Source: an uncultured virus (IMG/VR IMGVR_UViG_3300027754_000076)
Taxonomy: Duplodnaviria; Heunggongvirae; Uroviricota; Caudoviricetes
DNA: 64,000 nt
Reading direction: 5' to 3' (one strand)
IMG/VR virus record: IMGVR_UViG_3300027754_000076
Position 1 is the stretch's first letter. The number at the start of each line of letters is the position of its first letter. Shown here in pieces: positions 1-54,945 of this stretch. The notes beneath the pieces are model-generated. The model was not told the origin of the DNA. It worked only from the letters and a program-made list of their open reading frames with translations, and did no database searches. Made by a program: the position numbers and the translations under genes.

Positions 1-127
1 CTGTGATAGCGGTCACATCGGAAACGCCATCGTTGACAACCGCACCGAACATCTCAGCGGTAAGATTGCCAACGCCATTCCATATCAGCCGCCCGGTGCC
101 CATGCCGGTCGCGGTGAAGATCGTGCC
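1..127. repeat. Exact 127-bp repeat, copy 1
   Basis: ctgtgatagcggtcaca...gaagatcgtgcc is identical to 50854-50980; the copies diverge at 128/50981. Confidence 0.95.
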
Positions 128-463
128 GAGGTTGGTCGTTGCCGAGGACGAGGACGAATAATAGACCGTGGACCCACCCCCGTCGCCCGCTGTGGTTCGG
201 CCTGCGATCTGGATGAGGTCGTTGTTTACAAGATTGGTCAGAGCTTGTGCGGCAGCAACGTTAGAAGATTGAAAAACACGTTTATCAACGTATCTTTTAG
301 TTGCCAATCCAAAAGCTGTTGTTGGGTCTGCTGTTGCATAAGATGTATCAAGATACAATTGCGGAGGGGCAATGACTCTTGTCCCCGTATTGTAAGTAAC
401 ACCCAAGTTGGACTGACCAAACACGGAAAACGAAATCAGAAGAAATGTTAGAAGATATTTCAT
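1..463 (-). CDS. Tailspike of phage A, 5' part (runs off the window start; continues at 50853->48503 if the genome is circular)
   Basis: Not in the ORF track. Manual translation from ATG 463 gives MKYLLTFLLISFSVFGQSNLG...GRTTAGDGGGSTVYYSSSS...EMFGAVVNDGVSDVTAIT; the last 127 nt are identical to 50854-50980 and in frame with the 986-aa ORF. Confidence 0.85.
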   Translation of the reverse strand, partial: MKYLLTFLLISFSVFGQSNLGVTYNTGTRVIAPPQLYLDTSYATADPTTAFGLATKRYVDKRVFQSSNVAAAQALTNLVNNDLIQIAGRTTAGDGGGSTVYYSSSSSATTNLGTIFTATGMGTGRLIWNGVGNLTAEMFGAVVNDGVSDVTAIT

Positions 464-17516: not shown

Positions 17517-17770
17517 AAACTCACCCCTACTCTCTCGTTTACGTCTTAAACGGCCAACATCGGAACATCTCGTTCCGGACCAAGGAAGCAGCCATTGCCA
17601 CCGCTCAAACCATGAGCACGCCCGCGCCAGGTTCTCCCGCGTGGACTTCATGGGAGTTGCTAAAACGCGACCAGCTTGGCGCGCTAACATCCACCCTGCC
17701 GAACTGCGAATATCGTGACTATCTCGTCGGCGACGACGCCGAGGCAAAACGGCTCGGAGGTGTCGCGTGA
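17513..17770 (+). CDS. Hypothetical protein
   Basis: Coupled ORF. Confidence 0.5.
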   Translation: MKTHPYSLVYVLNGQHRNISFRTKEAAIATAQTMSTPAPGSPAWTSWELLKRDQLGALTSTLPNCEYRDYLVGDDAEAKRLGGVA

Positions 17771-38039: not shown

Positions 38040-40265
38040 ATGAACTTCCGAATCAAAAACTGTTACGGTGTATTTCCGCCCGGTGGCTGGATGTATTCGG
38101 AAGAAGGCTGGAACGCACCGGCTCCATTGGGCACAGGTTTCCGGGATCAGATTGTCAACATCGCCAACTTTCGCCGCCAGAATCCACGGCTGAACCTGAG
38201 TCCGAATCTGGCCGACTGTGAACAGGCACTTCACAACTTCACCGCCGCCCGTCTCAACTACCATGTGAACTGGTGCGAGGCGTTTGACGAAGACTCAAAA
38301 AAAAACTCACCGACTCACCAGACTTACTCCCCAAAGGATTCAAAAGATGTTCAACCGGGTGTCGTTGAGCGTTTTTGGAATCGCTTCAAAAACGATGCGC
38401 GCGGGCTGGCTATCCTTGGCCGATGGATTGGTGATGGCGCGGTTCCCGTTGACCAGTCGGTAGCCGACGAACGCGCACGCGCCTGTCTTCGCGGCAATGG
38501 TGGAAACACGTGCCCGCACAATCAACCGGGTGGCCACATTGAAACGGCCATCGCCGAAGAGATTTTGGCGCAGACTTCCTTCCGAAAGGAAATCAAACTG
38601 GTGGTTCCGGGAGAACCTGGACTTAAAACATGCGAGCTTTGCGGGTGTCATCTGCCGTTGAAAGTGTGGGTTCCAAACGTCCCGGCAATGGATGGTCGTC
38701 CGACATGGTGTTGGCAAAAGGGGGATAGCAAGCCAACTTCAGTTCGCCCCAAGATCAACGTTCATCGCGGCGGCGCATTCGGTGATGTGATTCAATCTAC
38801 GACCATTGCCGACGCTCTGTGTGAACATGGTTACGATGTTCATTTCATGGCCGGTGAAGTGGAAGGCGTGGTTCTAAAGGGGCATCCGTCCATCGCATCA
38901 AACACGCCTGCGCCTAATGTTCCAACCATTGAACTGGATTGGGCTTATGAACGGTCGCCTGATTTCCCCACGACCAGCATTCAGACGTTGTTGCATCGCA
39001 AGAACGGTCATGGCTTGCAACACCAACGGGTTCCCCAACTGTTTCTGACCGAGGAAGAGAAGAAGGAAGCGTTCAATGCGTTGATCGGTTTGAAGCGTCC
39101 CATTATCGGAATCGCTGCCGCCTCCGGGTCATGGAAGAATCGTCAAACGCACACCGAAGACTGGCGCAAGGTTGCGGAGACCATGCCGGAAGCAACCTTC
39201 ATAAGCCTTGGACCGTGGCCATTGCCGCATCCCGTTCGCAATCTGAACGTGAACGGTTTCCGAAGGGTCATGGCGTTAATCAACGAATGCGATGCGTTCG
39301 TGGGTGTTGATACCGGTCTTCTTCATGTCGCTGCTGCGTTCAGGAAGCCGATAGGCGTCATTGAAGGACCGTTCCGAAGTGAGTTGCGGGTTACGGACGG
39401 TTCCGATTTCTTGGCGGTCAAGGCACCGGTTGATTGCCTGTATTGTTCCACCTACACCTGTCAGAAATTCGACAAGGAAAAGCCGCCCTGCCAACGGCTG
39501 GATGTAAATGAAATGGCCAGAGTCATGCGGATGAAGGTGTTTCCGCATGGAGTTTCCGCACTAGTCCCAACAATGACGGGACTTCCAAGAATGGAGCGGT
39601 TGGCCAAGACGCTGGATAAGTCGATGGGCCAGATCGAATACGAACTGTTGATCGGTCTGGACGGGGACGCATCACCGGAACCCTATCGTCAATATGGCCA
39701 CCCGGTTCCCAACATATCCAAGAAACGAAACGGATTCGGCAAGACGTGCAACCGGATGGCCCGTCATAGCATGGGTGAATTCCTGTTCTTCCTGAATGAC
39801 GACTGCTACATGGACCCCGGTTCCGTTTCTGAGATGTTGAAGCATTTTGTTGACCCGTCTGTTGCAGTGGTCGGTTGCAAGACCCGGTATCCCAACGGGA
39901 AGCTTTATTTCGCGGGAAGTCACCGGCCACACGGAGCCACGAACTTCGGACACATTCAGGACAACCGGTTCACTGAACCAACTGAAATGGAGTTCATCAA
40001 CTTTGCCGCCGCCATCGTTCGCCGAAAGGCATTCTATCAGGTTGGAGGTTTTGACGAACGATACGACTGCTATTCCGAAGATGCCGATCTTTGCATTCGT
40101 TTGAAAAAGGCCGGGTGGAAACTGATTTACGAACCGAAAGCGACCGGGATACATGACGAATCCCAAACCACATCCCCAATGAAAATGAAGCTGCTTCAGG
40201 AAGGTGAAGCGTTGTTCGCGAAACGTTGGGGGACTTACCTGACGGAAACAAAACCACTACGATGA
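38040..40265 (+). CDS. Fusion: Cys-rich N-domain + GT9-like + GT2 glycosyltransferase
   Basis: GAFGDVI and VDTGLLHVAAA (GT9); GFGKTCN, FLNDD, GGFDERY, EDADLC (GT2). Confidence 0.88.
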   Translation: MNFRIKNCYGVFPPGGWMYSEEGWNAPAPLGTGFRDQIVNIANFRRQNPRLNLSPNLADCEQALHNFTAARLNYHVNWCEAFDEDSKKNSPTHQTYSPKDSKDVQPGVVERFWNRFKNDARGLAILGRWIGDGAVPVDQSVADERARACLRGNGGNTCPHNQPGGHIETAIAEEILAQTSFRKEIKLVVPGEPGLKTCELCGCHLPLKVWVPNVPAMDGRPTWCWQKGDSKPTSVRPKINVHRGGAFGDVIQSTTIADALCEHGYDVHFMAGEVEGVVLKGHPSIASNTPAPNVPTIELDWAYERSPDFPTTSIQTLLHRKNGHGLQHQRVPQLFLTEEEKKEAFNALIGLKRPIIGIAAASGSWKNRQTHTEDWRKVAETMPEATFISLGPWPLPHPVRNLNVNGFRRVMALINECDAFVGVDTGLLHVAAAFRKPIGVIEGPFRSELRVTDGSDFLAVKAPVDCLYCSTYTCQKFDKEKPPCQRLDVNEMARVMRMKVFPHGVSALVPTMTGLPRMERLAKTLDKSMGQIEYELLIGLDGDASPEPYRQYGHPVPNISKKRNGFGKTCNRMARHSMGEFLFFLNDDCYMDPGSVSEMLKHFVDPSVAVVGCKTRYPNGKLYFAGSHRPHGATNFGHIQDNRFTEPTEMEFINFAAAIVRRKAFYQVGGFDERYDCYSEDADLCIRLKKAGWKLIYEPKATGIHDESQTTSPMKMKLLQEGEALFAKRWGTYLTETKPLR

Positions 40266-40813
40266 CCATCACTGACAGGGTTGGAGACCCCAAGGAGTCT
40301 TCCCGAATTGTATGGGAGCTTTACAAGTCACCCGGCATTGACCTTGGATGTTGCAATGCAAGCCATACCCGGCTTCTTCCGCAGATGACGTTTGTTGACC
40401 TCATTCGTCATACCAATCCGCCAGATAACTTAGTGGAAATGGACATCTTGGATGTTCCAAAGGTTTACGAAGGCCGGAAGTTTGGCGTGGCATATATGCT
40501 GGATTCCGTGGAGCATCTTTACCAGCAACCGGCCCTGAAGCTGTTGAAGGAACTGGAGTCGATTTCGGAACGGATTGTTGTGTTTACTCCCATCGGAGAA
40601 CTGTGGATGAACAACGATTCGGGTCCAGACGGGCATCATTCGGGCTGGACCCCGGACATGTTTGAGGCGATGGGATACGAAACATGGACGTGGCCGAAAT
40701 ATCATCTGTTTCCCAGCGGCGAAACCCACGGCGCATTTTGGGCGTGGAAAGACATCGGCAAAGAAAACATGACGGTCGAAAAACTGTCCAAGAATGCGAG
40801 GGTAAAAGTATGA
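40262..40813 (+). CDS. Class I SAM methyltransferase-like protein
   Basis: IDLGC, LDSVEHL, VVFTP, HHSGWT. Confidence 0.7.
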   Translation: MTITDRVGDPKESSRIVWELYKSPGIDLGCCNASHTRLLPQMTFVDLIRHTNPPDNLVEMDILDVPKVYEGRKFGVAYMLDSVEHLYQQPALKLLKELESISERIVVFTPIGELWMNNDSGPDGHHSGWTPDMFEAMGYETWTWPKYHLFPSGETHGAFWAWKDIGKENMTVEKLSKNARVKV

Positions 40814-41421
40814 ATATGGTTGCTGTTTTTGACATGGTGGTGGCGCACGGCGGCAGAAAGTCCGAACTCACCCCGGAAGTCATGGGTGCAGTTGGAGGCT
40901 TCTGCGGAGACCGGTTCCGTCACCTGATGAACAACTTTGGTTCAGTTTGCGAATGCTACCTTGAGATTGGTTCACTTCACGGCGCATCGCTCACTTCCAC
41001 TTGTTACGGCAACGATATTGAAGCCTACGCCATTGAGAACTTCAGCGAGTTCGATGGAAACCGCGAGACACTGACCGGAAATGTCACCAAGTTTGCTCCG
41101 CAAGCGAAACTAATCTTTGGCGACTGTTGGTTGCCCGAAACCATCGCACAGATACCCGATGGCAAAGTGGACCTGTATTTCTACGACGGCTGCCATTCGG
41201 TTGAATCGCAGGAGAAGGCATTGACGGTCTATGCCTCCAAAATGTCGGACCAATTTATCTACATCGTGGATGATTGGAACTGGCCACAGGTTCAAGAAGG
41301 TGCAAGGCGTGGAATAGCTGCCAGTGGGTTGAAGATTCTCCGGTCGCACGAACAGCCGTGCCCCGATGGTGACGCTTCCGGGTGGTGGAACGGTGTCGGT
41401 ATTTTCGTATTACAAAAATGA
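40810..41421 (+). CDS. Methyltransferase_24-like SAM methyltransferase
   Basis: YLEIGSLHGAS, YDGCH, IVDDWNW, WWNG. Confidence 0.8.
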   Translation: MNMVAVFDMVVAHGGRKSELTPEVMGAVGGFCGDRFRHLMNNFGSVCECYLEIGSLHGASLTSTCYGNDIEAYAIENFSEFDGNRETLTGNVTKFAPQAKLIFGDCWLPETIAQIPDGKVDLYFYDGCHSVESQEKALTVYASKMSDQFIYIVDDWNWPQVQEGARRGIAASGLKILRSHEQPCPDGDASGWWNGVGIFVLQK

Positions 41422-42167
41422 AACTCGGCGGCTCCATGATAATCCATAACGCAGTCGAATTTGACTACTGCGTTGAAATTGCACTTCGTTCACTGCTTCC
41501 CGTCTGTGACGAGGTGGTAATCGTGGATGCGGAATCCGATGACGGAACCCGAAGCATCCTCATGGAACTGGCGGTGGAGTTTCCCAAGCTTCGCGTCCTG
41601 TCTGCCCCTTGGCGTCCCAACCCAGGCGGGTGGGGTTCTTGGTTGTCCGACCTTTCCAACATGTCGCGTGAGGCGTTGAAGGCGTCCGGTTGCACGCATC
41701 ACATTGGAATTCAGGCGGACGAAGTATTGGAGGCGGTTGACCCAAAATGGTTGCGTAACTACATTGAGGAAGCCCCTTGCGCCCTTTATCGGTTGAACTT
41801 CTGGATTGACCACCGGCATCTGGTTCCTCGCGGACGGGTCTGCAATGACCAGGTTATACGCTGCGGCCCCATAGATGCCGCTTACGTCGGTGACGCCGAA
41901 TCCATCTTGGCCGAACGTCCGGTTCTTCTGGATCGTCCGCAGATATTTCATTACGGCTTCATTCGTCGCACCAAGGAGTATGTGGCCAAGGCGAAGCCGA
42001 TGCACCTGGCGTTCACGGGTAGCAATTATGACCCGGCTTTGGACACGATGCTGGAAGACAAGCGAAAAGGGTTTGAACAGCATATCCCTTTGTCGGAATG
42101 CAAAAAGTTTACGGGCGACCATCCCAACATTGCCAAACAATGGCTTTCGGAAAGAGGTTACAACTGA
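41418..42167 (+). CDS. GT2-family glycosyltransferase
   Basis: SLLPVCDEVVIVD..SDDGT, QADE, IFHYGF. Confidence 0.82.
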   Translation: MKLGGSMIIHNAVEFDYCVEIALRSLLPVCDEVVIVDAESDDGTRSILMELAVEFPKLRVLSAPWRPNPGGWGSWLSDLSNMSREALKASGCTHHIGIQADEVLEAVDPKWLRNYIEEAPCALYRLNFWIDHRHLVPRGRVCNDQVIRCGPIDAAYVGDAESILAERPVLLDRPQIFHYGFIRRTKEYVAKAKPMHLAFTGSNYDPALDTMLEDKRKGFEQHIPLSECKKFTGDHPNIAKQWLSERGYN

Positions 42168-43078
42168 TGAGAATTGCATGGTCAGGCCGTCATACCCCTT
42201 ACGCCTACATGTTCATGCGGGCGTTTCCTGAACTGAGTTTTACCGTCGATGCTTGGGATGAAATCTTCAGACCTTTGCCAGAGAACGCCAAATGGGAACC
42301 GTGGTCCGGTGATTATGACGTGCTGATTACCGACCATTGGGATTTGACCCCGTTGGACGTGTCGGCAAAGCGCAAGGTGTTCATCGACCACAACGAGTAT
42401 TCCCATTCGGAAACCGGTGGCCAGCATGTGATCGACAACGTTGATGCGTTCGTATCGGTCTCGGAACACAAGCTGTGGACGCACCGGGAACTTTGCTTCA
42501 ACCCGAAGGTCCATTGGATATGGTTCTGTTTCGATGAAGCCATGTTTCCAGAACGCCGATACGACCTTCCAAAGAAAGTCGGGTTCGTTCACAACGGACT
42601 TAACGGCGAACAGGCAATCATCGCAAATGGAGTCCTGTGGGGGCACGACTCGGTTGGTATCGGGCATGGCAACACGCTGTTCATGGGCAAGCTTTCTTCT
42701 CCCTGTGGATTGGATGGGATGTTGGATGAAACCGGTTCCCTGTCGGCGGCTATCAACATCGTGAATGGTGATTCATGCGGCATGTCGCCACTGGAACTAA
42801 TGGCTCAGGGCGTTCCCGTGGTGTTCGGAGCCTCGCTTGATCTTCCAAGATTTCTGTTCTCTGGATGGAACTGTTTCATCACCCGGAACCGGGCAACGGA
42901 TTCCCTTGAGGAAATGCGCGAGTATGTAAGCCGTCTTGTGAACGACCAAGACTTTAACCGGCGCATGGGAGCTATGGCGCGCAAGACAGTGCTTCAGGAA
43001 TTAAGCGTTGACTTGTTTCGTCGTAAATGGTCTGCGGTATTGCAACTAAAGCTTCCAACCGATAATAATACCCCATGA
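42167..43078 (+). CDS. GT4 (GT-B) glycosyltransferase
   Basis: CGMSPLELMAQGVPVV...MGAMARKTV. Confidence 0.8.
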   Translation: MRIAWSGRHTPYAYMFMRAFPELSFTVDAWDEIFRPLPENAKWEPWSGDYDVLITDHWDLTPLDVSAKRKVFIDHNEYSHSETGGQHVIDNVDAFVSVSEHKLWTHRELCFNPKVHWIWFCFDEAMFPERRYDLPKKVGFVHNGLNGEQAIIANGVLWGHDSVGIGHGNTLFMGKLSSPCGLDGMLDETGSLSAAINIVNGDSCGMSPLELMAQGVPVVFGASLDLPRFLFSGWNCFITRNRATDSLEEMREYVSRLVNDQDFNRRMGAMARKTVLQELSVDLFRRKWSAVLQLKLPTDNNTP

Positions 43079-47082: not shown

Positions 47083-47117
47083 AAAGACCCCCGGCCCATC
47101 ACTGGGCCGGGGGTTTG
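47083..47117. terminator. Bidirectional terminator
   Basis: acccccggccca-tcac-tgggccgggggt between convergent operons. Confidence 0.75.
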
Positions 47118-47135
47118 TCATATGCCATACTAACC

Positions 47136-47393
47136 TCAAATCGTATCCGCCATCACGTCAACCTGCATGATGAGCTCATTTTCCGCCGCTAGCAACTCAC
47201 CAATCGTAATGTGCTTTACGTTGGAGAACCCGGCAATGGCATCGGCAATAGCGGGTTCGTGGTCGGCTAAACTGCCAAGCGTTACGGACGCTAAACCAAC
47301 GTAAGGAATAGGTGCAAGCTGAATCAATGCACCAACGGTTTTTAGGACAATCTGAAGGTTGTTCAGCGGCGGTTTATCGGTGGGTAAGGACAT
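47136..47393 (-). CDS. Hypothetical membrane-associated protein (lysis region)
   Basis: Hydrophobic segment; overlaps the lipoprotein gene. Confidence 0.5.
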   Translation of the reverse strand: MSLPTDKPPLNNLQIVLKTVGALIQLAPIPYVGLASVTLGSLADHEPAIADAIAGFSNVKHITIGELLAAENELIMQVDVMADTI

Positions 47394-47727
47394 TTAGAAG
47401 TTCCCCTTTCATGGCCAGCAATTCAGCGACGTTGATTTCTGTGATTCCTGCGTTGACAGCCGCTTCGGCAGCTTTTATGGCAGTTCGATGGGCTGACTGG
47501 TAGTCCGATATGAGAACAGCAACCCGATCCCTTTCGGCCAACAGCGAGGGCGAAGAACCTTCGTTGGTGCGCCTCTGCTTCCATCCCGCAAGCCACGCTT
47601 GATAGGCGGCATTCAAAGCGGCATCGCCTGTATTGACGGTTGATAACGCAATGCGATCGGGAGGCGTCTGGCAGCCAGCGAAGGCCATTGCCAAACAGAA
47701 TAGCATGGCGAGTGTGAAGCGTTTCAT
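47374..47727 (-). CDS. Lipoprotein (spanin-like candidate)
   Basis: Signal peptide with lipobox FAGC. Confidence 0.65.
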   Translation of the reverse strand: MKRFTLAMLFCLAMAFAGCQTPPDRIALSTVNTGDAALNAAYQAWLAGWKQRRTNEGSSPSLLAERDRVAVLISDYQSAHRTAIKAAEAAVNAGITEINVAELLAMKGELLNVLTHR

Positions 47728-47945
47728 GGCTTGGTGATAACCGAGGTAGCGGAACGGAGTTCTTCAATCTCAGCCTTGAGTTTTGGGTCGGTGTTGGTGC
47801 CGCACCAGACCGCATTGATAATCCCCTTCAAACCACCTCCGTTACGGAGCGCATGATAGGCACGGGTCAGGTAAGGAGAAATAGCGATCAGGAAAAGCAG
47901 AGTCCCGCGATACTTCTCAGGAATGAAATGAATGATGTCGTCCAT
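47724..47945 (-). CDS. Small membrane protein (holin-like)
   Basis: One TM segment; lysis-region position. Confidence 0.5.
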   Translation of the reverse strand: MDDIIHFIPEKYRGTLLFLIAISPYLTRAYHALRNGGGLKGIINAVWCGTNTDPKLKAEIEELRSATSVITKP

Positions 47946-47946
47946 A

Positions 47947-48141
47947 TTAGGGGTTCTCCCGTTTGTCGCGGATGGCTTTGCGGACGATCAGCCACAGGCC
48001 GACCAGCGCGGCCAGGGCACCCGCGCCGTGGGCGATGAAGAGGAACAGTTCGTCGAACCCATGCACCCACTGGATCAGCATTCCCGAGATCAACATTGCG
48101 CTCCCTCCGATGGCGTCATGGTGTTCTTGCACTGGTTTCAA
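47947..48141 (-). CDS. Two-TM small protein (holin-like)
   Basis: Two hydrophobic helices and a basic C-terminus. Confidence 0.55.
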   Translation of the reverse strand: MKPVQEHHDAIGGSAMLISGMLIQWVHGFDELFLFIAHGAGALAALVGLWLIVRKAIRDKRENP

Positions 48142-48153
48142 ATCTTTCTTGGG

Positions 48154-48492
48154 TTAGGGATTGGCCAACAGAGTCGGCAACGCGGCCTGCAACTGTTCGC
48201 GGGCCTGCACCATTGCCGGGGCGATGGCGATGACCTCGGCCCACGTCGCATGGACTTCACGGAGCGGCTTGATTACCACCGTCGTCCCGCTGGGGCCGAC
48301 TTTGCGGGTGTATTCAAAATACTCCGCGACGGCGGAATACTCGCCCGTCTTATCGTCCTGCACGATATGCAGACCGCCAAGCGATTTCGTTACTGTGGTG
48401 GTCACGGTCTCGCTCGTTGAACTGACAATAATACCGTCTGCGATGACCGCACAAGCCGCCAGAGCGGAGATTATTAACATTGGTTTCTTCAT
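48154..48492 (-). CDS. Signal-peptide-bearing tailspike partner, paralog 1
   Basis: MKKPMLIISALAACAVIA-DG...QAALPTLLANP; paralog of 51476-51817. Confidence 0.75.
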   Translation of the reverse strand: MKKPMLIISALAACAVIADGIIVSSTSETVTTTVTKSLGGLHIVQDDKTGEYSAVAEYFEYTRKVGPSGTTVVIKPLREVHATWAEVIAIAPAMVQAREQLQAALPTLLANP

Positions 48493-48502
48493 AGTTGTCT
48501 TC

Positions 48503-51463
48503 TTAGTTTACAATTCGCAGTTGTCTAAATCCGGCCCCGGCACTGTCCGCCGCGCCGATTGTGACTTGGTAGAACGTGCCGTTGACATCGAGCCATAGCG
48601 CGGTGGTTGAGGCCGCTTTGTCATCCGTAATGCGGACCCGCTCCGTCATCGTCTGGAGCGTGGACGAGCTAGCGCCCGCCGTGGGAGTCGCCAACCGAAT
48701 CCATGAGCTGGCAGTTGATGCGTTTCCAGTGCCTTGACCCGAATGTATCCAGAGGTCGTTGCCCGCGATATTGGAGCCGCTGGCAATTTCTCCGGTCAGG
48801 TAGGCGTCAACCGGCGAGGCGTTGGCGGTATTACCAATCGTCATCCTCGGGTTTGAGCCGGTCCATTCCGCTCGATAAATACCTTTACCAGCCGTCTCGT
48901 CGTAGGCGTAAAAGCCGCCTGTGTTTCTAAAGCCAAGCGTGTTGAACCCACTACGAACAAACTGCATGATTGATACACCACCTGAGCCACCAGTAAAGGT
49001 CGCCACGTTTCCGCTACCAGTTGCACCGACGGCCAGCGTTCCGGCGTTGACCGCGCCGGATGCAGTAACCGCAGTGGTTGTCAATCCGCCCGTGAACGTC
49101 GCACTTCCATCGCCACTGAAAGTGTGAGTCGTCGTGCTGTTGGTCTGGATTCGCAGCAGTGCGGTGGTGCCTCCGAGCACGTTCAATCGCAATCCACTGC
49201 TGCCGTTGTTGGCCGTCGCGGTCAGAACTGGTGCGGTTCCCGTGAGATTAAGATCGGTCCCGGACACTGCACCCGACCCCGTAATGGTAGTGCCACTGAC
49301 CGGGCCGGAAGACGTGACCGCCGTAGTAGTAAGCCCGCCCGTGAAGGTTGCACTGCCGTCCCCGTTGAACGTATGGGTAGTGGTTCCGTTGGTCTGGAAA
49401 CGGACCAAGTTCGACGCGCCGCCGAGCACGTTTATACGAAGGCCACTGGTGCCATTACCTGCCGTCACGGTCAGAGTTGGCGCACTATTAGAATAAGCCA
49501 CGGTGCCCGTGAAGGTTGCGACTCCAGATACAGGATGACTGCCACCAAAAACCCCCTGAGACATCCAACTGTTTAATAGCCCTGCCGTAGAATCAGTCAC
49601 GTCATTCGTTGGGGAGTTGCCGAAGGAATTCATTGTCACGTAGTTGTAATATCCGGCGTTCGTGAACAGGACTCCGCCGAAACCACCTTGCACTGCTACG
49701 CTGTTTAGCGTGTTGCCGGTGGCTCCATCGAGCGTGACGGCGTAGGTGTTGCTGTTCGTCTCCGAATTGTAAGAGCCGTAATTCAGTGACGCGATCACCG
49801 ATGAAAACTGGTTGAGCGTCACGCCTGACCCATCAAGATAGATTCCCCCATCGCTCGACTGGTCGGCGCGCGTGCTGGAAAACACGTTGGCGTTAGCTCC
49901 GTCTGACATATACAAGCCCACTGCTGGGCCAACTGTTTGATACAGATTTCCCGACCCGGAAGACGCGTAGCTGGAAACATAGGCCCCGTTGGTGGCGTTC
50001 ATCCATGTCGGGCTTACCCCGAAGGTGGTGCTGCTCAGTTTAGTGACCCAACTTATGCCAGATTTCGTAAGCCCAGTCGGCATGGTGCCGTCAGTGACCC
50101 ATCGCACCGGGTCGCCAGTCTCCAGCCCGTGAGCATTGGCCGTGGTGAAGATTCCCGATGCGGGACCAGTTACCAGATGCGAACTGTTGGTTCGCACTGC
50201 GTTGTAGTTCATCGTGTTGTTGAAGAGGTTGTAAGCAGATGACGCCCCACCAATCCACAGTGTCGGACCCATGGTGCCACCAAATATAGAATCCGAAAAG
50301 ATGCTGTCGGCACTACCCCACAGAAAAAGCCCTTTTCCAAAACCTGTTTGGTCGCCGACCACCTGATTGCCCTCCCACTTGAGATAATTCAGGTCCATAA
50401 ACCGCGCGGAATAGCCTTTCGCTGCGAAAAAGGTGCAGTTGCGGACGGTCAGATTCCACTTGGCCGCAAAATCGAGAATGTCGCAGTTATAGGATGTCTG
50501 ATTAGACCCGTTCCCCATGAATACGATACCTTCTATGGAAGAAGACTGATAGACGGAATTGTAAGGTCCGCTTCCATCTTCCCATGTTTCATTAGCCTGA
50601 CGGACATATCCGTTCGTGGCATAATCGCCGATGAGCATCTTGCAGTTTGCGCCGTTGCCAAGACGCCAAACCGTTGAACCGGCGTAGAGTTTATTCGTCC
50701 CCGCAGCAACGGAAGTCACATCTGTAAATTTGTTATCATTTATACCCACCAGTGACGTGCGGATTGGCAGTCGGATGGTGGAATCAATCAGGTATTCACC
50801 GACACCAAAATACAGCACCCCGGAAGTCTGCGTGGTAAGATAGGCCAGTCCTGCTGTGATAGCGGTCACATCGGAAACGCCATCGTTGACAACCGCACCG
50901 AACATCTCAGCGGTAAGATTGCCAACGCCATTCCATATCAGCCGCCCGGTGCCCATGCCGGTCGCGGTGAAGATCGTGCCTAGGTTGGTAGTAAGAACTG
51001 ATGAGGCTGAGTAGTAAAAGGTAGCTCCGCCACCAGTTCCAGCGGTAGCCCGATCAACCGTCAACACAGCTTGACCATCACGTAAGCCTTTCAATGCCTG
51101 CATTGCAGCGACATTAGCGACGTAGATCGGCACGTTTACAGATGGAATCGTAACCTGCGCCCAAGCAAACCAGCTCGCGGGGCTAGCGATCAGCGTGGTC
51201 GTGTTGGTGCCAGTCCAACTTGCGCCCATATTCGTGATCGAATAGTTCGCATTCACTGATTGGACGAACACGGTAAGCGTGTAAGAACCGTTCGTGCTTA
51301 ACGCTCCATACGAACGCGGGTCCATCGCGGCCAACGTAGCTAGGGAGGTGGTGGAGCGGGAAGTGTTGATCTCGGAAGTGGCAAAGGCGGCGAGGCTGCT
51401 TAAAAAGAAAAGGATCGCCTTAATCAATTTGCAACGGGTGATTTTTGAACTCACAACATTCAT
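48503..51463 (-). CDS. Tailspike (pectate-lyase-like beta-helix) with phage-B N-terminus; 48503-50980 shared with phage A
   Basis: Signal-peptide-like start, GGGATFYY domain, FGAVVNDGVSDVTAI beta-helix cap, N/S/T/G-rich, internal ~60-aa duplication. Confidence 0.85.
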   Translation of the reverse strand: MNVVSSKITRCKLIKAILFFLSSLAAFATSEINTSRSTTSLATLAAMDPRSYGALSTNGSYTLTVFVQSVNANYSITNMGASWTGTNTTTLIASPASWFAWAQVTIPSVNVPIYVANVAAMQALKGLRDGQAVLTVDRATAGTGGGATFYYSASSVLTTNLGTIFTATGMGTGRLIWNGVGNLTAEMFGAVVNDGVSDVTAITAGLAYLTTQTSGVLYFGVGEYLIDSTIRLPIRTSLVGINDNKFTDVTSVAAGTNKLYAGSTVWRLGNGANCKMLIGDYATNGYVRQANETWEDGSGPYNSVYQSSSIEGIVFMGNGSNQTSYNCDILDFAAKWNLTVRNCTFFAAKGYSARFMDLNYLKWEGNQVVGDQTGFGKGLFLWGSADSIFSDSIFGGTMGPTLWIGGASSAYNLFNNTMNYNAVRTNSSHLVTGPASGIFTTANAHGLETGDPVRWVTDGTMPTGLTKSGISWVTKLSSTTFGVSPTWMNATNGAYVSSYASSGSGNLYQTVGPAVGLYMSDGANANVFSSTRADQSSDGGIYLDGSGVTLNQFSSVIASLNYGSYNSETNSNTYAVTLDGATGNTLNSVAVQGGFGGVLFTNAGYYNYVTMNSFGNSPTNDVTDSTAGLLNSWMSQGVFGGSHPVSGVATFTGTVAYSNSAPTLTVTAGNGTSGLRINVLGGASNLVRFQTNGTTTHTFNGDGSATFTGGLTTTAVTSSGPVSGTTITGSGAVSGTDLNLTGTAPVLTATANNGSSGLRLNVLGGTTALLRIQTNSTTTHTFSGDGSATFTGGLTTTAVTASGAVNAGTLAVGATGSGNVATFTGGSGGVSIMQFVRSGFNTLGFRNTGGFYAYDETAGKGIYRAEWTGSNPRMTIGNTANASPVDAYLTGEIASGSNIAGNDLWIHSGQGTGNASTASSWIRLATPTAGASSSTLQTMTERVRITDDKAASTTALWLDVNGTFYQVTIGAADSAGAGFRQLRIVN
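50854..50980. repeat. Exact 127-bp repeat, copy 2 (phage A/phage B junction)
   Basis: Identical to 1-127. Confidence 0.95.
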
Positions 51464-51475
51464 GTCTTTCTTGGG

Positions 51476-51817
51476 TTAGGGATTGGCCAGCAACGTCGGT
51501 AACGCTGTTTGCATCTGTGTCCGCATCGCACCGAGCGCTGGAATCAAGTTTGTCGCCGTGTCCCATGGCACTGTGGATTGCTTGAGCGCAGTAGCGGACA
51601 ACACGTTGATAGTGTCGCCGTCCACTGAACGGACCACGCGTTCGTAGTTCACGGTCACCGTGATCGCGCCACTCACTCGGTTCACATCAATCGTGGCTTG
51701 ACGCAGTTCGTCGGTGATGGTTTCGGTCACAGTCTTCGATGTGCTGCTAACGAGCAAACCGTCGGCCAGCATTGCAGTGGCGGCCAAGGCCGCGCAGAGG
51801 ATGAGTTTATTCTTCAT
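51476..51817 (-). CDS. Signal-peptide-bearing tailspike partner, paralog 2
   Basis: True start ATG 51817: MKNKLILCAALAATAMLA-DG...QTALPTLLANP. Confidence 0.75.
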   Translation of the reverse strand: MKNKLILCAALAATAMLADGLLVSSTSKTVTETITDELRQATIDVNRVSGAITVTVNYERVVRSVDGDTINVLSATALKQSTVPWDTATNLIPALGAMRTQMQTALPTLLANP

Positions 51818-51821
51818 AGAC

Positions 51822-54812
51822 TTAGTTCTTCTTGATTGCGGTCCAAACGTAGGTTCCGGCGTCCGTGGCGACAGTGGTGATAGTTGCACTTCCAGCCGAA
51901 ACGATGACATCCAGCGCGCCCGTGCGAACACCGCTGGAAGTTTGAACTGTCAGGTCAATCACCGTGCTAGTGGTGATCGCCGAGCTTGTGATTGTGTTCG
52001 TTCCGTTGACCAGCGTCACCGTGCCAGACAGCGCGTTGGCTCCGCTGGTAATGGTCAGCGTCTTGCCTGCGGTAGAGCCATTCAAGTTTCCGTAGAAATT
52101 CAGGTCAGGGTTGCCGGACGAATACGGGCTTACATACCAACCAGTCGAGACCGATGACGTGTTGTTCAGGTTGACCTGCGCTGTAAGCGATGCGCCGTTG
52201 GTTCCACCAACCAACCATGACTGCTCCACGGTGGAATAGATGCGTGATCCGCGCGCAAAGTATGAGCCGTTGTAACCATTAAACTGAATTGAACCTAGGT
52301 CGCCTGTAACAACTGTCGGCGAGGCATAAGTTCCGATGGCGTGGTTCAGTGATATAATCGGAGCCGTGGCCCCGTAGTTATAGAAGGCCGCAACCGGATT
52401 TTGCCCTTGGGCGTAAAACGAAGGAACGCCCCAGATTGTGTGCGTTGCGGAGGCAATGTTTCCAGATGCGCCCATGACGACATTTCCTGCGAGGGTGGCA
52501 GTAGTGCCGTTGGCGGTCAGGTTTCCAGTCAACGTGGTCGCTCCCGTGACTGCGAGCGTGCCGCCAACCGTGGCGGCACCAGCCACGGTGATCGTGCTGG
52601 GGAAGGTTGCCGTATTCAGAATGACCGCGTTGGCCGTGCTGTCGAATGCCTGCGATGAATACGGTCTAGAATAGGTGCCAAGGACGGTTCCGGCGACGAC
52701 TGGATAATTTCCTGCCGTTACCAGCGAAAGATTAAGCGTTCCACCCGCTTTGGCGTAGTCGCTTATCTTCACCGGGCCGATGCTCATGGACGACCCAGCA
52801 TAGTTGGGGTTGCACAGGGTCGCCGTGTAGCCCGGCCCGACGCCGGAACTGATAAGCTGCATCGCCCCGACACTCATCCCTCCCGCCGCCGATTGCTTGA
52901 AAATCTGATAACTGCCCGTGGATGTAATACACTCAAGATGAAGTTGGTCGAACGAAAGCACATTGGCTGACGAGTCGATGAATGGACCCGCCGGGAAATT
53001 GACATGCTCGAAGTCTGCACCAATAAACGAAACGGTGGTATTGACTCCGAGTTGTATGGGCGCTTCGGCAAGGATTCCATCCGCGAAGGCGATTGTGCCG
53101 GTAGTTCCGGTGATAGTTCCGGGGTCGGAGTTCATCGACAGGCCGATCTGATTGCCGCTGATCGTGCTGATGAAATAGCGGTTGTTGATCGCGCTCTGAG
53201 AAGTCGTCAGAGTGACCAGCAGGTTAGTGTTGAACACCGGAGGAATCGTGCCCGTAAAATACACTGTCAGATTCGTGCCCGCCGACTTGACAACGTTTGT
53301 TACCGTTACGCTGTTTGATGTTATGTTAGCGCCGCCTTGAAAGTATGGGTGGTTGAATTGAAGCGTGGTTCCAGCTCCGGGCCATTTAATCCACGCACGC
53401 TTGACATTGTTGACGTATAGATTGTTAAAGGTGTGCTGCCATGTGCTGTCCGTAGAAAGGCAACCAACGCTGTAATTATGGCCACTAAGACCAACTCCAT
53501 TCACCTCGTTTTCAGAACTAAGAGACTCAAAATAAACCCCGAAAGAGTTTGTTTCGGTTGAGGCAGGATTAGATAAAATGGTCAGGTAAACGTCTTCCAG
53601 TTTTGATTTGATCGTGTTGGCAGCGAAAACCCAGTTCGGACTGTTGGCGGTCGTGATTGTGATCGTGGTGGTTCCGGGGTCTTGATATTTCCCGCCCGCA
53701 CCCTTGAACCAAAGCCCGGCGCGGTTGGTCGGTGTCAGAGATGTATAAAAGTTTCCCGGCCCAGCCGCGAGCTTGGCAGTCACGCCTGCCGTGGATGCGC
53801 CATGATAGGCCAGCGCGTTGGTAAAGGCCGTGGCGTTGTCCGTCGCCCCGTCGCCGACGGCCCCATACCATTCGATGTAGGCCGGGCCGTTGTATTTCGC
53901 AAGGAATCGCCCGCTTCCCATTGCTGTGGCGACAAAGATTTCCCCAAGGTTAGCCGTGGCCGTCGATGACGAAGAATAAAGAAACAGGGGCATCTTGGTG
54001 TCGCCGGATGCGGTTCTGCCCTGCGGTTGCACAAGATCTCCGTTGATCAGGCCGGTCAATGCCTGCATCGCAGCGACGGTGGCGACTTGGCGCACACGGG
54101 CGGCTGCGGCCGCCGACGTGGTGGTCGCACTGGCCACGTCGGTCACGTCCACCGTGCCGCTGACGATGGACTTGGTGGTCGAGTGTTTGCCGATGATCTT
54201 GCCCGAGGTTACGGTCGTGCCAAGTTGCAACGATTCGAGCGGGACAAACTTCACCTGCCCCGTGGTCGGGTCGGTCAATACCGGGACCGCATTGGTGGTC
54301 AATGAGAAGCTCGCGATTTCCGGCGTGTTGAAATAGAGATTCGTGTAACTGGTGATAAAGAGATTACCGCCGGCGATGGTCGCGTCCTGCACGCCATACC
54401 AGTTGATATGGTTCGCCTGGCTGTTCTGGATGTAGTCGAAGTTTTGCAGCGAGAAGCTGCGCGGCCAGGTGCCGCCGCCGCCGCCGGGGATGCCGTCAAA
54501 GGTCAGGCTGCCGTTGGTCACGATGACCGTGCCCCAGATCTTGGGGGCGTAAAGCAGGGCGTTGGTGGTGGTGAGCCCATTGGTGGCGGCGACGGAATTG
54601 AGCGTCGATGCCAGGGTGAGCAGCGAGATTCCCTTGAGACCGTAGGTGGCGTCATCGAGGGCCACGCGGCCGTTGGTGGTCGTGGTGGTGGCGAGCGGGA
54701 GATCCTTGATGCGGGTCTGCGCGGCCACGCGCGGGCAGCCGGGCGCGAGCGCAGACAGGAGCACGGCGAGCCGGAAAATCCACGCGGAGAAAGGACGGAC
54801 GGCGCAAGGCAT
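51822..54812 (-). CDS. Second tailspike (beta-helix), phage B
   Basis: Signal-peptide-like N-terminus (..VAA-QTRIKDLP), VATVAAMQAL domain, WYGAVGDGATDNATAF. Confidence 0.85.
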   Translation of the reverse strand: MPCAVRPFSAWIFRLAVLLSALAPGCPRVAAQTRIKDLPLATTTTTNGRVALDDATYGLKGISLLTLASTLNSVAATNGLTTTNALLYAPKIWGTVIVTNGSLTFDGIPGGGGGTWPRSFSLQNFDYIQNSQANHINWYGVQDATIAGGNLFITSYTNLYFNTPEIASFSLTTNAVPVLTDPTTGQVKFVPLESLQLGTTVTSGKIIGKHSTTKSIVSGTVDVTDVASATTTSAAAAARVRQVATVAAMQALTGLINGDLVQPQGRTASGDTKMPLFLYSSSSTATANLGEIFVATAMGSGRFLAKYNGPAYIEWYGAVGDGATDNATAFTNALAYHGASTAGVTAKLAAGPGNFYTSLTPTNRAGLWFKGAGGKYQDPGTTTITITTANSPNWVFAANTIKSKLEDVYLTILSNPASTETNSFGVYFESLSSENEVNGVGLSGHNYSVGCLSTDSTWQHTFNNLYVNNVKRAWIKWPGAGTTLQFNHPYFQGGANITSNSVTVTNVVKSAGTNLTVYFTGTIPPVFNTNLLVTLTTSQSAINNRYFISTISGNQIGLSMNSDPGTITGTTGTIAFADGILAEAPIQLGVNTTVSFIGADFEHVNFPAGPFIDSSANVLSFDQLHLECITSTGSYQIFKQSAAGGMSVGAMQLISSGVGPGYTATLCNPNYAGSSMSIGPVKISDYAKAGGTLNLSLVTAGNYPVVAGTVLGTYSRPYSSQAFDSTANAVILNTATFPSTITVAGAATVGGTLAVTGATTLTGNLTANGTTATLAGNVVMGASGNIASATHTIWGVPSFYAQGQNPVAAFYNYGATAPIISLNHAIGTYASPTVVTGDLGSIQFNGYNGSYFARGSRIYSTVEQSWLVGGTNGASLTAQVNLNNTSSVSTGWYVSPYSSGNPDLNFYGNLNGSTAGKTLTITSGANALSGTVTLVNGTNTITSSAITTSTVIDLTVQTSSGVRTGALDVIVSAGSATITTVATDAGTYVWTAIKKN

Positions 54813-54842: not shown

Positions 54843-54856
54843 GGCGGCGGGGGAAG

Positions 54857-54936
54857 AAGTAATCAGTGGTCAGTGATCAGTGGTCAGTAAACAGTGGTGC
54901 GGCGGCTGATTACTGATTACTGATCACTGATTACTT
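54857..54936. repeat. Heptamer (CAGTGAT-like) repeats arranged as an inverted pair
   Basis: aagtaatcagtggtcagtgatcag...ctgattactgatcactgattactt. Confidence 0.8.
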
Positions 54937-54945
54937 CCCCTCTTC

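What the first reader, a model, noticed from the sequence alone, without database searches (positions are those of the whole stretch)
48154..54812. Tailspikes and their partner proteins all carry Sec-type signal peptides: a possible exported spike+chaperone system
Seen: three unrelated spike N-termini look like signal peptides (basic start, hydrophobic core, small-residue cleavage site): MKYLLTFLLISFSVFG|QSN (463->1), MNVVSSKITRCKLIKAILFFLSSLAAFA|TSE (51463) and MPCAVRPFSAWIFRLAVLLSALAPGCPRVAA|QTR (54812). Each spike is followed by a ~112-aa paralog that also has one: MKKPMLIISALAACAVIA|DG and MKNKLILCAALAATAMLA|DG. Established: canonical tailspikes (P22, K1F, CBA120) fold in the cytoplasm, start with virion-anchoring domains and lack signal peptides. 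Inference: these beta-helix receptor-binding/depolymerase proteins are exported and folded in the periplasm with a co-exported chaperone. They would then join virions at lysis, or act from the envelope (capsule removal for release, superinfection exclusion). The feature recurs in two unrelated phages, which argues against chance.
Basis: partly seen in the sequence, partly recalled or inferred. Interest (0 to 1): 0.85.

Follow-up and report, generated by a model that had tools for sequence, protein, structure and literature searches.

The report
Phage tailspikes carrying export signals
Uncultured phages begin their sugar-cutting tailspike proteins, and a small new partner protein encoded after each, with bacterial secretion signals, so these host-recognition parts probably mature outside the cytoplasm where the rest of the virus particle is built.

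Summary
All five N-termini are at the stated coordinates and pass a crude signal-peptide test that flags 9 of 79 window ORFs. No SignalP was available.

Comparative evidence says the leaders are real:
- 8 of 11 close spike homologues and 7 of 11 partner homologues carry one.
- Only 3 of 45 distinct distant spikes sharing the same linker do.
- Leaders diverge faster than the mature N-termini.
- The stretch upstream of an alternative start is under purifying selection.

The spikes are modular: leader, backbone-specific N-domain, conserved linker, then an exchangeable beta-helix glycanase body. The partner is a very rare new secreted family with no fold match.

The cassette sits in at least three phage backbones. 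The window contig itself is probably an assembly join of two phages through the shared cassette.

In cultured Cellulophaga phage phi10:1, four proteins that GenBank marks as structural by MS/MS carry the same kind of leader. Virion association is therefore plausible.

A chaperone role for the partner is inference only. The Verrucomicrobiota host is unsupported; Gln at +1 hints at Bacteroidota. I found no paper describing this.

The parts
51822..54812 (-). Spike 2, 996 aa. Layout: leader aa 1-31 (54720-54812); N-domain NB aa 32-240 (54093-54719, 62-67% GC like the DNA upstream); linker aa 241-344 (53781-54092); body aa 345-996.
   Evidence: ORF and translation. GC step. The match to G002 stops at 54092. 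NB recurs with another body in P0025, 81% identity over 336 aa. An in-frame GTG at codon 28 is an alternative start in this copy; P0025 has Ala there.
51476..51817 (-). Partner 2, 113 aa. Leader aa 1-18 (51764-51817). Starts 4 nt after the spike 2 stop.
   Evidence: 100% match in G002.
48503..51463 (-). Spike 1, 986 aa. Layout: leader aa 1-28 (51380-51463); N-domain N1 aa 29-112; linker aa 113-216 (50816-51127); beta-helix body aa 217-986.
   Evidence: Family profile hits beta-helix glycanases and epimerases in the PDB, E 9e-12 to 4e-8, at profile positions 153-326. Foldseek on a low-confidence model (pLDDT 43) gives 38 matches at E<=0.001; those shown are tailspikes, beta-helix sugar-acting enzymes and one beta-helix adhesin.
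48154..48492 (-). Partner 1, 112 aa. Leader aa 1-18 (48439-48492). The mature part has three long antiparallel strands and two helices.
   Evidence: AF2 model: mean pLDDT 78, about 90 for residues 31-110.
2..463 (-). N-terminus N3 of the phage-A spike. Leader aa 1-16 (416-463), then Gln. Runs off the window.
   Evidence: The same N-terminus heads P0017, P0026, and the L010 and L067 spikes, which have different bodies.
1..139 (.). Copy of the linker DNA, repeated at 50854-50992 (98.6%). The records G001 and G002 both begin at the position matching window 50980, inside the second copy.
48137..48196 (.). Conserved 3' junction of the cassette: the partner's C-terminal codons, its stop and the spacer. 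Repeated at 51459-51518 (83%).
   Evidence: family D3..
47136..48141 (-). Membrane and lipoprotein genes after the cassette, probably the lysis module: 64 aa (47947-48141), 73 aa (47724-47945), 117-aa lipoprotein (47374-47727), 85 aa (47136-47393). A terminator-like hairpin follows at 47087-47114.
   Evidence: PHROG membrane-protein hit for the 64-aa ORF, E 1.5e-4. G002 has a different set of the same kind after its partner 1.
54856..54937 (.). Inverted repeat with 32-nt arms, between the 66-aa ORF of the high-GC phage and the spike 2 start.
   Evidence: pair I1..

Best explanation
These are exchangeable receptor-binding cassettes of tailed phages.

Shown (sequence architecture). Each spike is built as: cleavable Sec-type leader, short backbone-specific N-domain, conserved linker, right-handed beta-helix polysaccharide-cutting body. 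A gene for a small secreted protein of a new family (about 95 mature residues) follows directly.

Inferred (mechanism).
1. Both proteins are exported through Sec late in infection.
2. The spike trimer folds in the periplasm. The partner acts on it there, most likely as a dedicated folding or holding factor, in the way tail-fibre assembly proteins do in the cytoplasm.
3. The mature spike can already cut envelope glycans from inside.
4. It docks by its N-domain onto cytoplasm-built particles once the neighbouring lysis genes breach the membrane.

Recombination at the linker and at the partner's 3' end moves body plus partner between unrelated phages.
For: Leaders:
- 5 of 5 pass the crude test, against 9 of 79 window ORFs.
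- 8 of 11 close homologues pass. Of the three that fail, one is a gene call that starts downstream and one begins part-way into what looks like a leader.
- Only 3 of 45 distinct distant spikes that share the linker pass.
- Leader identity is lower than identity over the first 60 mature residues: 7/16 against 46/60, 5/16 against 36/60, 5/21 against 22/60, 10/34 against 24/60.
- 11 synonymous and 5 non-synonymous changes in the 18 codons upstream of the alternative Met.
- The N3 and NC starts abut the upstream stop codon.

Partner:
- 14 hits among 1.84 billion representatives. Twelve are small proteins, including the window's own partner 1.
- 7 of the other 11 carry leaders.
- The partner follows every distinct cassette seen: body 1, body 2, L010 and L067.
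- None was found in the 51 loci of distant spikes.

Beta-helix body:
- PF12708 in P0023, P0024 and the L010 spike.
- PDB profile hits.
- Foldseek matches to tailspikes.
- The linker region matches annotated tailspikes and depolymerases of cultured phages.

Modularity and transfer.

Virion association:
- N-domains track the backbone while bodies vary.
- phi10:1 gp091-094, structural by MS/MS in the GenBank record, carry Gln+1 leaders.

Cysteine: 4.3 per 1000 aa in 11 leader-bearing spikes, against 14.0 in 38 leaderless ones.
Against: - No signal-peptide predictor was run and there is no experiment. Export, cleavage and compartment are inferred.
- Spike 2 in this window has an in-frame GTG at codon 28. 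Starting there would give a leaderless protein.
- One close homologue, P0027, has no leader.
- Four of 11 partner homologues fail the test, though they may be short gene calls.
- The window spikes have 3 Cys each, an odd number, so there is no disulphide signature of periplasmic folding.
- The Bacteroidota O-glycosylation sequon is not enriched.
- The partner has no match to any chaperone family or fold.
- Partner 1 is nearly unchanged after the L067 spike (about 95% by eye), although that spike's C-terminal part is only 36% identical to spike 1's. Tight co-evolution with the body is therefore not shown.
- The Cysteine contrast is confounded by host and base composition.
- MS/MS detection in phi10:1 shows co-purification, not the route taken. 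Those proteins are not shown to be homologues of the window's spikes.
Confidence: 0.5

Rival explanations
1. Free exported enzymes, not virion parts. The spike-like proteins are secreted depolymerases that strip or remodel the host's capsule or exopolysaccharide from the periplasm or the medium. This would aid release, prevent re-adsorption or exclude superinfection. The partner would be their periplasmic inhibitor or immunity protein, or a separate exclusion factor. The real receptor-binding proteins would be other fibres.
For: - Secretion signals fit an extracytoplasmic site of action.
- Phage A has other fibre-like genes: the paralogues at 32070-33002 and 33006-34028. The high-GC phage has a leaderless 1296-aa protein just upstream.
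- N3 leaves only about 45 residues between the leader and the linker.
- Pantoea WceF is a tailspike-fold trimer exported by bacteria themselves (PMC7949094, passages).
- 5% of prophage CAZymes carry signal peptides (PMC13507307, passage).
Against: - N-domains are conserved per backbone across different bodies. That is the pattern of virion anchors.
- NB is 210 residues long and would have no evident role in a free enzyme.
- The gene sits at the end of the structural module, before the lysis genes.
- Leader-bearing proteins of phi10:1 were found in virions by MS/MS according to the record.
Confidence: 0.25
2. The hydrophobic N-termini are not working export signals. Either the true starts lie downstream, or the segment is an uncleaved helix with another role, such as tethering spikes to the inner membrane until lysis or packing inside the tail.
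For: - The JGI gene call for the G002 relative starts at the downstream Met (P0021).
- Spike 2 has an internal GTG.
- No Shine-Dalgarno-like motif is evident before any start.
- Signal-peptide calls on phage structural proteins can be artefacts. The P. gingivalis phage paper treats major-capsid 'signal peptides' so (PMC10367356, passage).
Against: - Purifying selection upstream of the downstream Met: 11 synonymous against 5 non-synonymous changes.
- P0025 lacks the internal GTG codon but keeps the leader.
- At least six leaders of unrelated sequence keep the same layout: basic start, hydrophobic core of 9-16 residues, small -3/-1 residues.
- That core length fits cleaved signals better than membrane anchors, from general knowledge of signal peptides.
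- Gln at +1 in 8 of 14 leaders, with cleavage sites placed by eye.
Confidence: 0.12
3. The partner has nothing to do with the spike. It would be an envelope protein of the lysis or exclusion module that happens to travel with the spike 3' end.
For: - Partner 1 is immediately followed by holin-like and lipoprotein genes in two backbones.
- It is nearly unchanged behind a diverged spike in L067.
- It has no similarity to tail-fibre assembly proteins.
Against: - Partner 2 lies between two spike genes, far from any lysis gene, 4 nt after spike 2 and 12 nt before spike 1.
- The L010 spike, with a quite different body, has a strongly diverged partner.
- The family was found only next to leader-bearing spikes of this lineage.
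Confidence: 0.15

Closest known systems
Leader-bearing 'structural proteins' of cultured Cellulophaga baltica phages: phi10:1 gp091-094 plus the gp095 'pectate lyase' (KC821618), and phi46:3 gp079-083 (KC821622)
   Same: - Several consecutive large late proteins start with Sec-type leaders and lie directly before holin-like or lysis genes.
- Other structural proteins in the same records lack leaders.
- The genes are shared at 92-94% nucleotide identity between unrelated phage families, like the cassette here.
- RefSeq names some of them pectate lyase or tail fiber.
- Four carry the GenBank note 'experimental MS/MS proteomics'.
   Different: - No sequence relation to the window's spikes was shown, and they have no Pfam hits.
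- No small partner gene follows them.
- All have Gln at +1, against only some here.
- I found no paper that discusses their leaders. The original phage-genome paper is not in the library and was not read.
Canonical leaderless tailspikes and depolymerases: P22 gp9 and K1F endosialidase (recalled); HK620, Det7 ('Dettilon'), Klebsiella K2-2 and Acinetobacter tailspikes (PDB matches)
   Same: - Right-handed beta-helix body after an N-terminal anchor and linker.
- Modular exchange of bodies.
- Position at the end of the structural genes.
- Pfam PF12708 in homologues.
   Different: - Those proteins start with the anchor domain and have no leader. So do 42 of 45 distinct distant relatives examined here.
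- They fold in the cytoplasm (established knowledge, recalled).
- They have no secreted partner.
Pantoea stewartii WceF (PMC7949094)
   Same: A trimeric tailspike-fold glycanase that is exported and acts on the cell's own exopolysaccharide (passages read).
   Different: - It is a bacterial gene in an EPS cluster.
- Its signal is Tat, so it is exported folded. There is no twin arginine here.
- It has no virion-type N-domain and no partner.
Tail-fibre assembly proteins and chaperones: Mu, P2 and lambda Tfa, T4 gp38 and gp57A (recalled)
   Same: A small gene directly downstream of each fibre or spike gene, duplicated along with it and varying with it.
   Different: - Those are cytoplasmic, without leaders.
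- No Pfam or PHROG match to them.
- The fold is different and unmatched.
T5 Llp and Cor-type exclusion lipoproteins beside receptor-binding genes (recalled)
   Same: A small exported protein encoded next to the receptor-binding gene.
   Different: - Those are lipoproteins that block a protein receptor.
- The partner's Cys is not conserved.
- The spikes look glycan-specific.
Secreted and SAR endolysins, for example Oenococcus phage fOg44 Lys44 (PMC6116005)
   Same: A tailed-phage late protein sent through Sec before lysis (passages read).
   Different: These are lysis enzymes, not receptor-binding or virion-type proteins.

Membership tests
Right-handed beta-helix tailspike/depolymerase (Pfam PF12708 Pect-lyase_RHGA_epim and relatives) | Pfam match of the window's own spikes above the gathering score | tested here: not met
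   0 families for spike 1 and spike 2, even at E<=5.
Right-handed beta-helix tailspike/depolymerase (Pfam PF12708 Pect-lyase_RHGA_epim and relatives) | Homologues that share the linker match the family at the position right after the linker | tested here: met
   P0023: PF12708 at 1.3e-7 plus K1-lyase_C at 8.2e-14. P0024: PF12708 at 1.4e-9. L010 spike: PF12708 at 1.2e-11, Beta_helix at 2.2e-8, NosD at 2.6e-7.
Right-handed beta-helix tailspike/depolymerase (Pfam PF12708 Pect-lyase_RHGA_epim and relatives) | A profile of the family finds solved beta-helix glycan enzymes | tested here: met
   Profile A4 gives 14 PDB sequences at E<=0.1, best 9.4e-12. They are beta-1,3-glucanase, mannuronan epimerases, pectin lyase and carrageenase. 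Mostly only 45-85 profile positions are covered.
Right-handed beta-helix tailspike/depolymerase (Pfam PF12708 Pect-lyase_RHGA_epim and relatives) | Beta-helix fold of the body | tested here: inconclusive
   The model of spike 1 has mean pLDDT 43. Foldseek still gives 38 matches at E<=0.001; those shown are tailspikes, beta-helix sugar-acting enzymes and one beta-helix adhesin. Spike 2 was not modelled.
Right-handed beta-helix tailspike/depolymerase (Pfam PF12708 Pect-lyase_RHGA_epim and relatives) | Trimer, catalytic residues, presence in the virion | not testable with these tools
   No experiment and no reliable model.
Sec / signal peptidase I signal peptide | Basic n-region, hydrophobic h-region, small residues at -3/-1, within the first 40 residues or so | tested here: met
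   Crude test: 5 of 5, against 9 of 79 window ORFs. Cleavage sites were placed by eye. No trained predictor was available.
Sec / signal peptidase I signal peptide | The feature is kept in homologues while the sequence drifts | tested here: met
   8 of 11 spike homologues and 7 of 11 partner homologues pass. Leader identity is below mature identity in 5 diverged pairs.
Sec / signal peptidase I signal peptide | Actual translocation and cleavage | not testable with these tools
   Needs reporter fusions or N-terminal proteomics.
Lipoprotein (signal peptidase II) signal | Conserved lipobox Cys at +1 | tested here: not met
   The Cys of partner 1 is not conserved in partner 2, P0004 or others. Leaders N1 and N3 have no Cys at the site. 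NB has a ...GC motif that fits the lipobox better in P0025 than in the window, so that one case stays open.
Tat signal | Twin-arginine motif before the hydrophobic core | tested here: not met
   No RR in any of the five leaders.
Bacteroidota Q-rule substrates (PMC5837995, abstract seen in the listing) | Gln at +1 after cleavage | tested here: inconclusive
   By eye, 8 of 14 leader-bearing spikes have Gln at +1, among them N3, NB, P0018, P0023, L024 and L046. N1, NC and both window partners (Asp) do not. The L010 partner does.
Tail-fibre assembly proteins/chaperones | Sequence or fold match to a known Tfa, gp38 or Caudo_TAP family | tested here: not met
   No Pfam, PHROG or NCBIfam family.
Tail-fibre assembly proteins/chaperones | Gene directly downstream of the fibre gene, one per fibre gene | tested here: met
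   Gaps of 4 and 10 nt. Also in G002, L010 and L067.
Type IX secretion cargo | C-terminal sorting domain | tested here: inconclusive
   No Pfam domain of any kind in the window spikes. No dedicated search was made.

The most novel reading that the evidence does not exclude
Tailed-phage particles finished in two compartments. Capsid and tail are built in the cytoplasm. The receptor-binding tailspikes go through Sec, fold in the periplasm with a dedicated secreted partner, and are added to the particle only when lysis merges the compartments. The unit of linker, body and partner moves as one piece between unrelated phages. Leader-bearing virion proteins of cultured Cellulophaga phages would be the same route in a tractable system.
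Probability: 0.3. Interest if true: 0.85.

Novelty: new variant of a known kind. Interest (0 to 1): 0.68.

Why it matters
Textbook assembly of tailed phages takes place wholly in the cytoplasm, and canonical tailspikes carry no export signal. If these spikes are exported, three things follow.
- The last step of virion assembly would depend on host secretion and on lysis.
- Phage depolymerases would act on the envelope from inside before release.
- Genome annotation, host-range prediction and recombinant production of such depolymerases would need to treat the leader and the partner as functional parts.

The question is directly testable in cultured Cellulophaga phages, whose public records already mark leader-bearing proteins as virion components.

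Tried and rejected
Spike-partner binding. One complex-prediction job was run: spike 1 residues 217-986 with partner residues 26-112, each with its own alignment. Result: no verdict, score 0.00, controls not run. It says nothing either way.

Partner fold.
- Foldseek against the PDB and BFVD: no match at E<=0.001.
- VIA-align over 48,161 chains: best Z 4.7.
- ESM Atlas: best score 0.83, an unnamed viral cluster.
- The profile hits P0013 and P0016 are a HAMP-repeat kinase and a protein with no family; I treat them as spurious.

Direct annotation of the window's proteins.
- No Pfam or NCBIfam family for spikes or partners; one NCBIfam hit far under its cut-off.
- No PHROG for spikes or partners.
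- No PDB sequence match for spike 1, and only E 0.09 for spike 2.
- No tblastn match of spike 1 in 50,697 phage records.

Disulphide signature. Not found: 3 Cys in each window spike and none in the mature partners.

O-glycosylation sequon D[ST][AILVMT]. Not enriched in the spikes or partners. Observed 5, 2, 1, 0 and 2, against shuffle means of 3.7, 3.2, 2.2, 0.3 and 0.8.

Host.
- The phage-A terminase has no match in cultured phages.
- The high-GC phage's capsid protein is about 52% identical to those of Rhizobium and Acinetobacter phages, which does not fix a host.
- The one GTDB hit is a 9.2-kb contig binned in an 'Actinomycetes' MAG. I do not trust that as host evidence.

Rejected readings.
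- Spanin or holin identity for the partner: it occurs twice, once between two spike genes.
- Tat export: there is no RR.

Failed call. The search for related loci with the 12-member partner alignment failed for lack of a conserved stretch. A 4-member alignment was used instead.

Full report
WHAT IS THERE

All genes of the finding lie on the minus strand, tightly packed:
- spike 2: 54812->51822, 996 aa
- partner 2: 51817->51476, 113 aa, 4 nt after spike 2
- spike 1: 51463->48503, 986 aa, 12 nt after partner 2
- partner 1: 48492->48154, 112 aa, 10 nt after spike 1
- then a 64-aa and a 73-aa membrane protein, a 117-aa lipoprotein and an 85-aa ORF
- a strong hairpin at 47087-47114 closes the set

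A third N-terminus starts at 463 and runs off the window.

Database matches for these proteins:
- Neither spike and neither partner matches any Pfam, PHROG or NCBIfam family.
- The partners are paralogues, 35/95 identical.
- The spikes share only a roughly 100-residue linker.

THE WINDOW HOLDS TWO PHAGES

GC content is about 0.53 up to roughly 53,600 and about 0.65 beyond that point. The step lies inside spike 2.

Each side has its own phage genes:
- The low-GC part has a terminase and replication genes.
- The high-GC part has a major head protein and a head protease.

Evidence on how the contig is built:
- Window 1-139 repeats 50854-50992 at 98.6%.
- IMG/VR record G001 (39.6 kb) equals the window at 100% from 50980 downward over the 3,981 nt compared.
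- A 937-aa protein, P0017, on a 50,980-nt contig begins with the 463->1 N-terminus and is 90% identical to spike 1 over the aligned part. It clusters at 90% identity with the window's own spike 1.
- The window's own spike 1 sits on a 72,556-nt contig.

My reading is that the low-GC phage ('A') is a circle of about 50.9 kb. Its spike would be N3 plus body 1. The contig would run from a high-GC phage ('B') into phage A through the shared body 1 and partner 1. I take this to be an assembly join, at about 0.8. It was not tested with reads.

A third backbone, G002, adds to the picture:
- It is 53,993 nt with a 2,057-nt terminal repeat and GC of about 0.59.
- It carries spike 2 body, partner 2, spike 1 and partner 1 at 98% identity to window 54092-48143. 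It matches the window almost nowhere else.
- Its own membrane and lipoprotein genes follow the cassette.

MODULAR SPIKES

N-domains go with the backbone and bodies vary.
- N3 heads body 1 (P0017), a 1196-aa protein (P0026), the L010 spike (a clear Pfam beta-helix) and the L067 spike. A diverged N3 heads P0023, which has a K1-lyase C-domain.
- NB heads body 2 here and another body in P0025.
- N1 and its G002 relative NC head body 1 and body 2.
- The break in the match to G002 falls at the start of the linker, 54092/54093.
- The cassette's 3' end is a conserved 60-nt junction (family D3).

The body is a right-handed beta-helix glycan enzyme, on four lines of evidence:
- PF12708 in three relatives.
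- Profile hits to solved glucanases, epimerases and lyases, E down to 9e-12.
- Tailspike matches to a low-confidence model, pLDDT 43.
- The linker region matches annotated tailspikes and depolymerases of Klebsiella, Acinetobacter, Serratia and Salmonella phages.

ARE THE LEADERS REAL?

SignalP was not available. My crude test flags the five proteins and 9 of 79 window ORFs in all. The stronger evidence is comparative.

1. Frequency. Eight of 11 close homologues pass. One miss is a gene call that starts downstream, one begins part-way into what looks like a leader, and one (P0027) truly lacks a leader. Among 51 loci of more distant spikes with the same linker, 45 distinct N-termini could be read and 3 pass. 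Six loci were dropped: 2 without an N-terminus in the locus and 4 duplicates.

2. Rate of change. Leaders change faster than what follows them:

| Pair | Leader identity | First 60 mature residues |
|---|---|---|
| N1 / NC | 7/16 | 46/60 |
| N3 / P0023 | 5/16 | 36/60 |
| P0018 / P0019 | 5/21 | 22/60 |
| P0020 / P0024 | 10/34 | 24/60 |

3. Translation. N1 and NC both have a Met 18 codons after the predicted cleavage site, and JGI called the G002 gene from there. Those 18 codons differ by 11 synonymous and 5 non-synonymous changes, so they are translated.

4. Gene packing. The N3 and NC start codons abut the upstream stop.

Weak point: the window's spike 2 has an in-frame GTG at codon 28. P0025 has Ala at that position and keeps the leader.

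Other features of the leaders:
- None has a twin arginine.
- With cleavage sites placed by eye, Gln follows in 8 of 14 leader-bearing spikes. This recalls the Bacteroidetes Q-rule (PMC5837995, abstract only). N1, NC and both window partners do not follow it.
- I give a Bacteroidota host for phage A about 0.4. I see nothing that points to Verrucomicrobiota.

THE PARTNER

Distribution:
- A word-indexed search of 5.8 billion proteins found only the partner itself and a 96% copy.
- An exhaustive profile search of 1.84 billion representatives found 14 hits at E<=0.001. Twelve are small proteins of 56-124 aa.
- Seven of the 11 small hits other than the window's own carry leaders.

Structure: the mature part models well, about 90 pLDDT, as three long antiparallel strands and two helices. 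It matches no known fold.

Context:
- A partner follows every distinct cassette with downstream DNA in hand: body 1, body 2, L010 (hmmsearch E 6e-7) and L067.
- No partner is found in the 51 distant loci.
- Partner 2 lies between two spike genes. That ties the family to spikes and not to lysis.
- Partner 1 is nearly unchanged in L067, although the spike C-terminus there is only 36% identical. Strict co-variation with the body is therefore not shown.

A folding or holding role is inferred only from gene position, from the shared leader (hence the same compartment) and from analogy with tail-fibre assembly genes.

DO THE SPIKES REACH THE VIRION?

Backbone-specific N-domains argue that they do.

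Notes from earlier sessions of this scan pointed to cultured Cellulophaga phages, and I checked the records myself:
- In phi10:1 (KC821618), gp091-094 carry the GenBank note 'experimental MS/MS proteomics analysis'. All four, and the gp095 'pectate lyase', start with textbook leaders followed by Gln. Holin-like genes follow them.
- In phi46:3 (KC821622), gp079-083 do the same, while the other structural proteins in the region I read do not.
- These genes are 92-94% identical between different phage families.

This is co-purification in another lineage, and those proteins have no shown homology to the window's spikes. It still raises my odds of virion association to about 0.6.

Those earlier notes also report paired cysteines and glycosylation sequons. 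Neither is seen here. Cysteine is instead three times rarer than in the leaderless relatives.

LITERATURE

Five full-text searches found no paper that describes tailspikes or tail fibres with Sec leaders. The relevant papers, of which I read passages only:
- WceF, a Tat-exported bacterial protein with a tailspike fold (PMC7949094).
- Secreted and SAR endolysins (PMC6116005).
- Phage DGR target proteins lack signal peptides (PMC6199706).
- Q-rule leaders on five P. gingivalis phage genes of unknown function (PMC10367356).
- 5% of prophage CAZymes have signal peptides, with tail fibres excluded from that set (PMC13507307).

The paper that first described the Cellulophaga phage genomes is not in the library. 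Its supplements may bear on this.

VERDICT

The export reading is well supported by comparison, but it is untested. The chaperone reading is a reasonable guess. Relative to what is in print, this is a new variant of the tailspike theme.

Noticed in passing
window 1-139, 50854-50992 and about 53600-54100: The 64-kb window probably joins two phage genomes (GC 0.53 and 0.65) through a shared spike-body and partner segment. The linker repeat marks where the low-GC phage's circle would close. Other public assemblies break at the same spot.
   Followed up: partly
window 38040-43078 and 17767-18939: Phage A carries sugar-related genes. Between terminase and the portal-like gene lie a 741-aa GT2/GT9 glycosyltransferase, a methyltransferase and a GT1-like protein. 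Elsewhere there is an RmlD-like epimerase. They could modify the host surface or glycosylate virion proteins.
   Followed up: no
L054:4078-5772 and L063:4558-6651: Two IMG/VR tail-fibre genes have in-frame upstream extensions that look like Tat signals (..TRRxV..LTGAA..). They precede an N-terminus that three relatives use as their start.
   Followed up: no
L067:2272-4993: In a 9.7-kb metagenome contig with the phage-A backbone, the N3 spike is split over three overlapping frames. This is either frameshifts or sequencing errors. An intact partner and lysis genes follow.
   Followed up: no
window 54856-54937: A long inverted repeat with 32-nt arms (88% complementary), made of short TCAGT/TGATC-like units, lies just upstream of spike 2.
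   Followed up: no
window 32070-33002 and 33006-34028: Two adjacent paralogous genes (310 and 340 aa) have near-identical N-termini and no leader. They are possibly the phage's other fibres.
   Followed up: no
window 47136-48141: The presumed lysis module has membrane proteins and a lipoprotein, but no recognisable endolysin among the ORFs scanned.
   Followed up: partly
KC821622, KC821608, KC821607, KC821618, MT732443 (L070:2344-8748): The leader-bearing structural genes of Cellulophaga phages are 92-94% identical at the DNA level across different phage families (Pachyviridae, Assiduviridae and the Nekkels phages). This points to recent exchange of these cassettes.
   Followed up: partly
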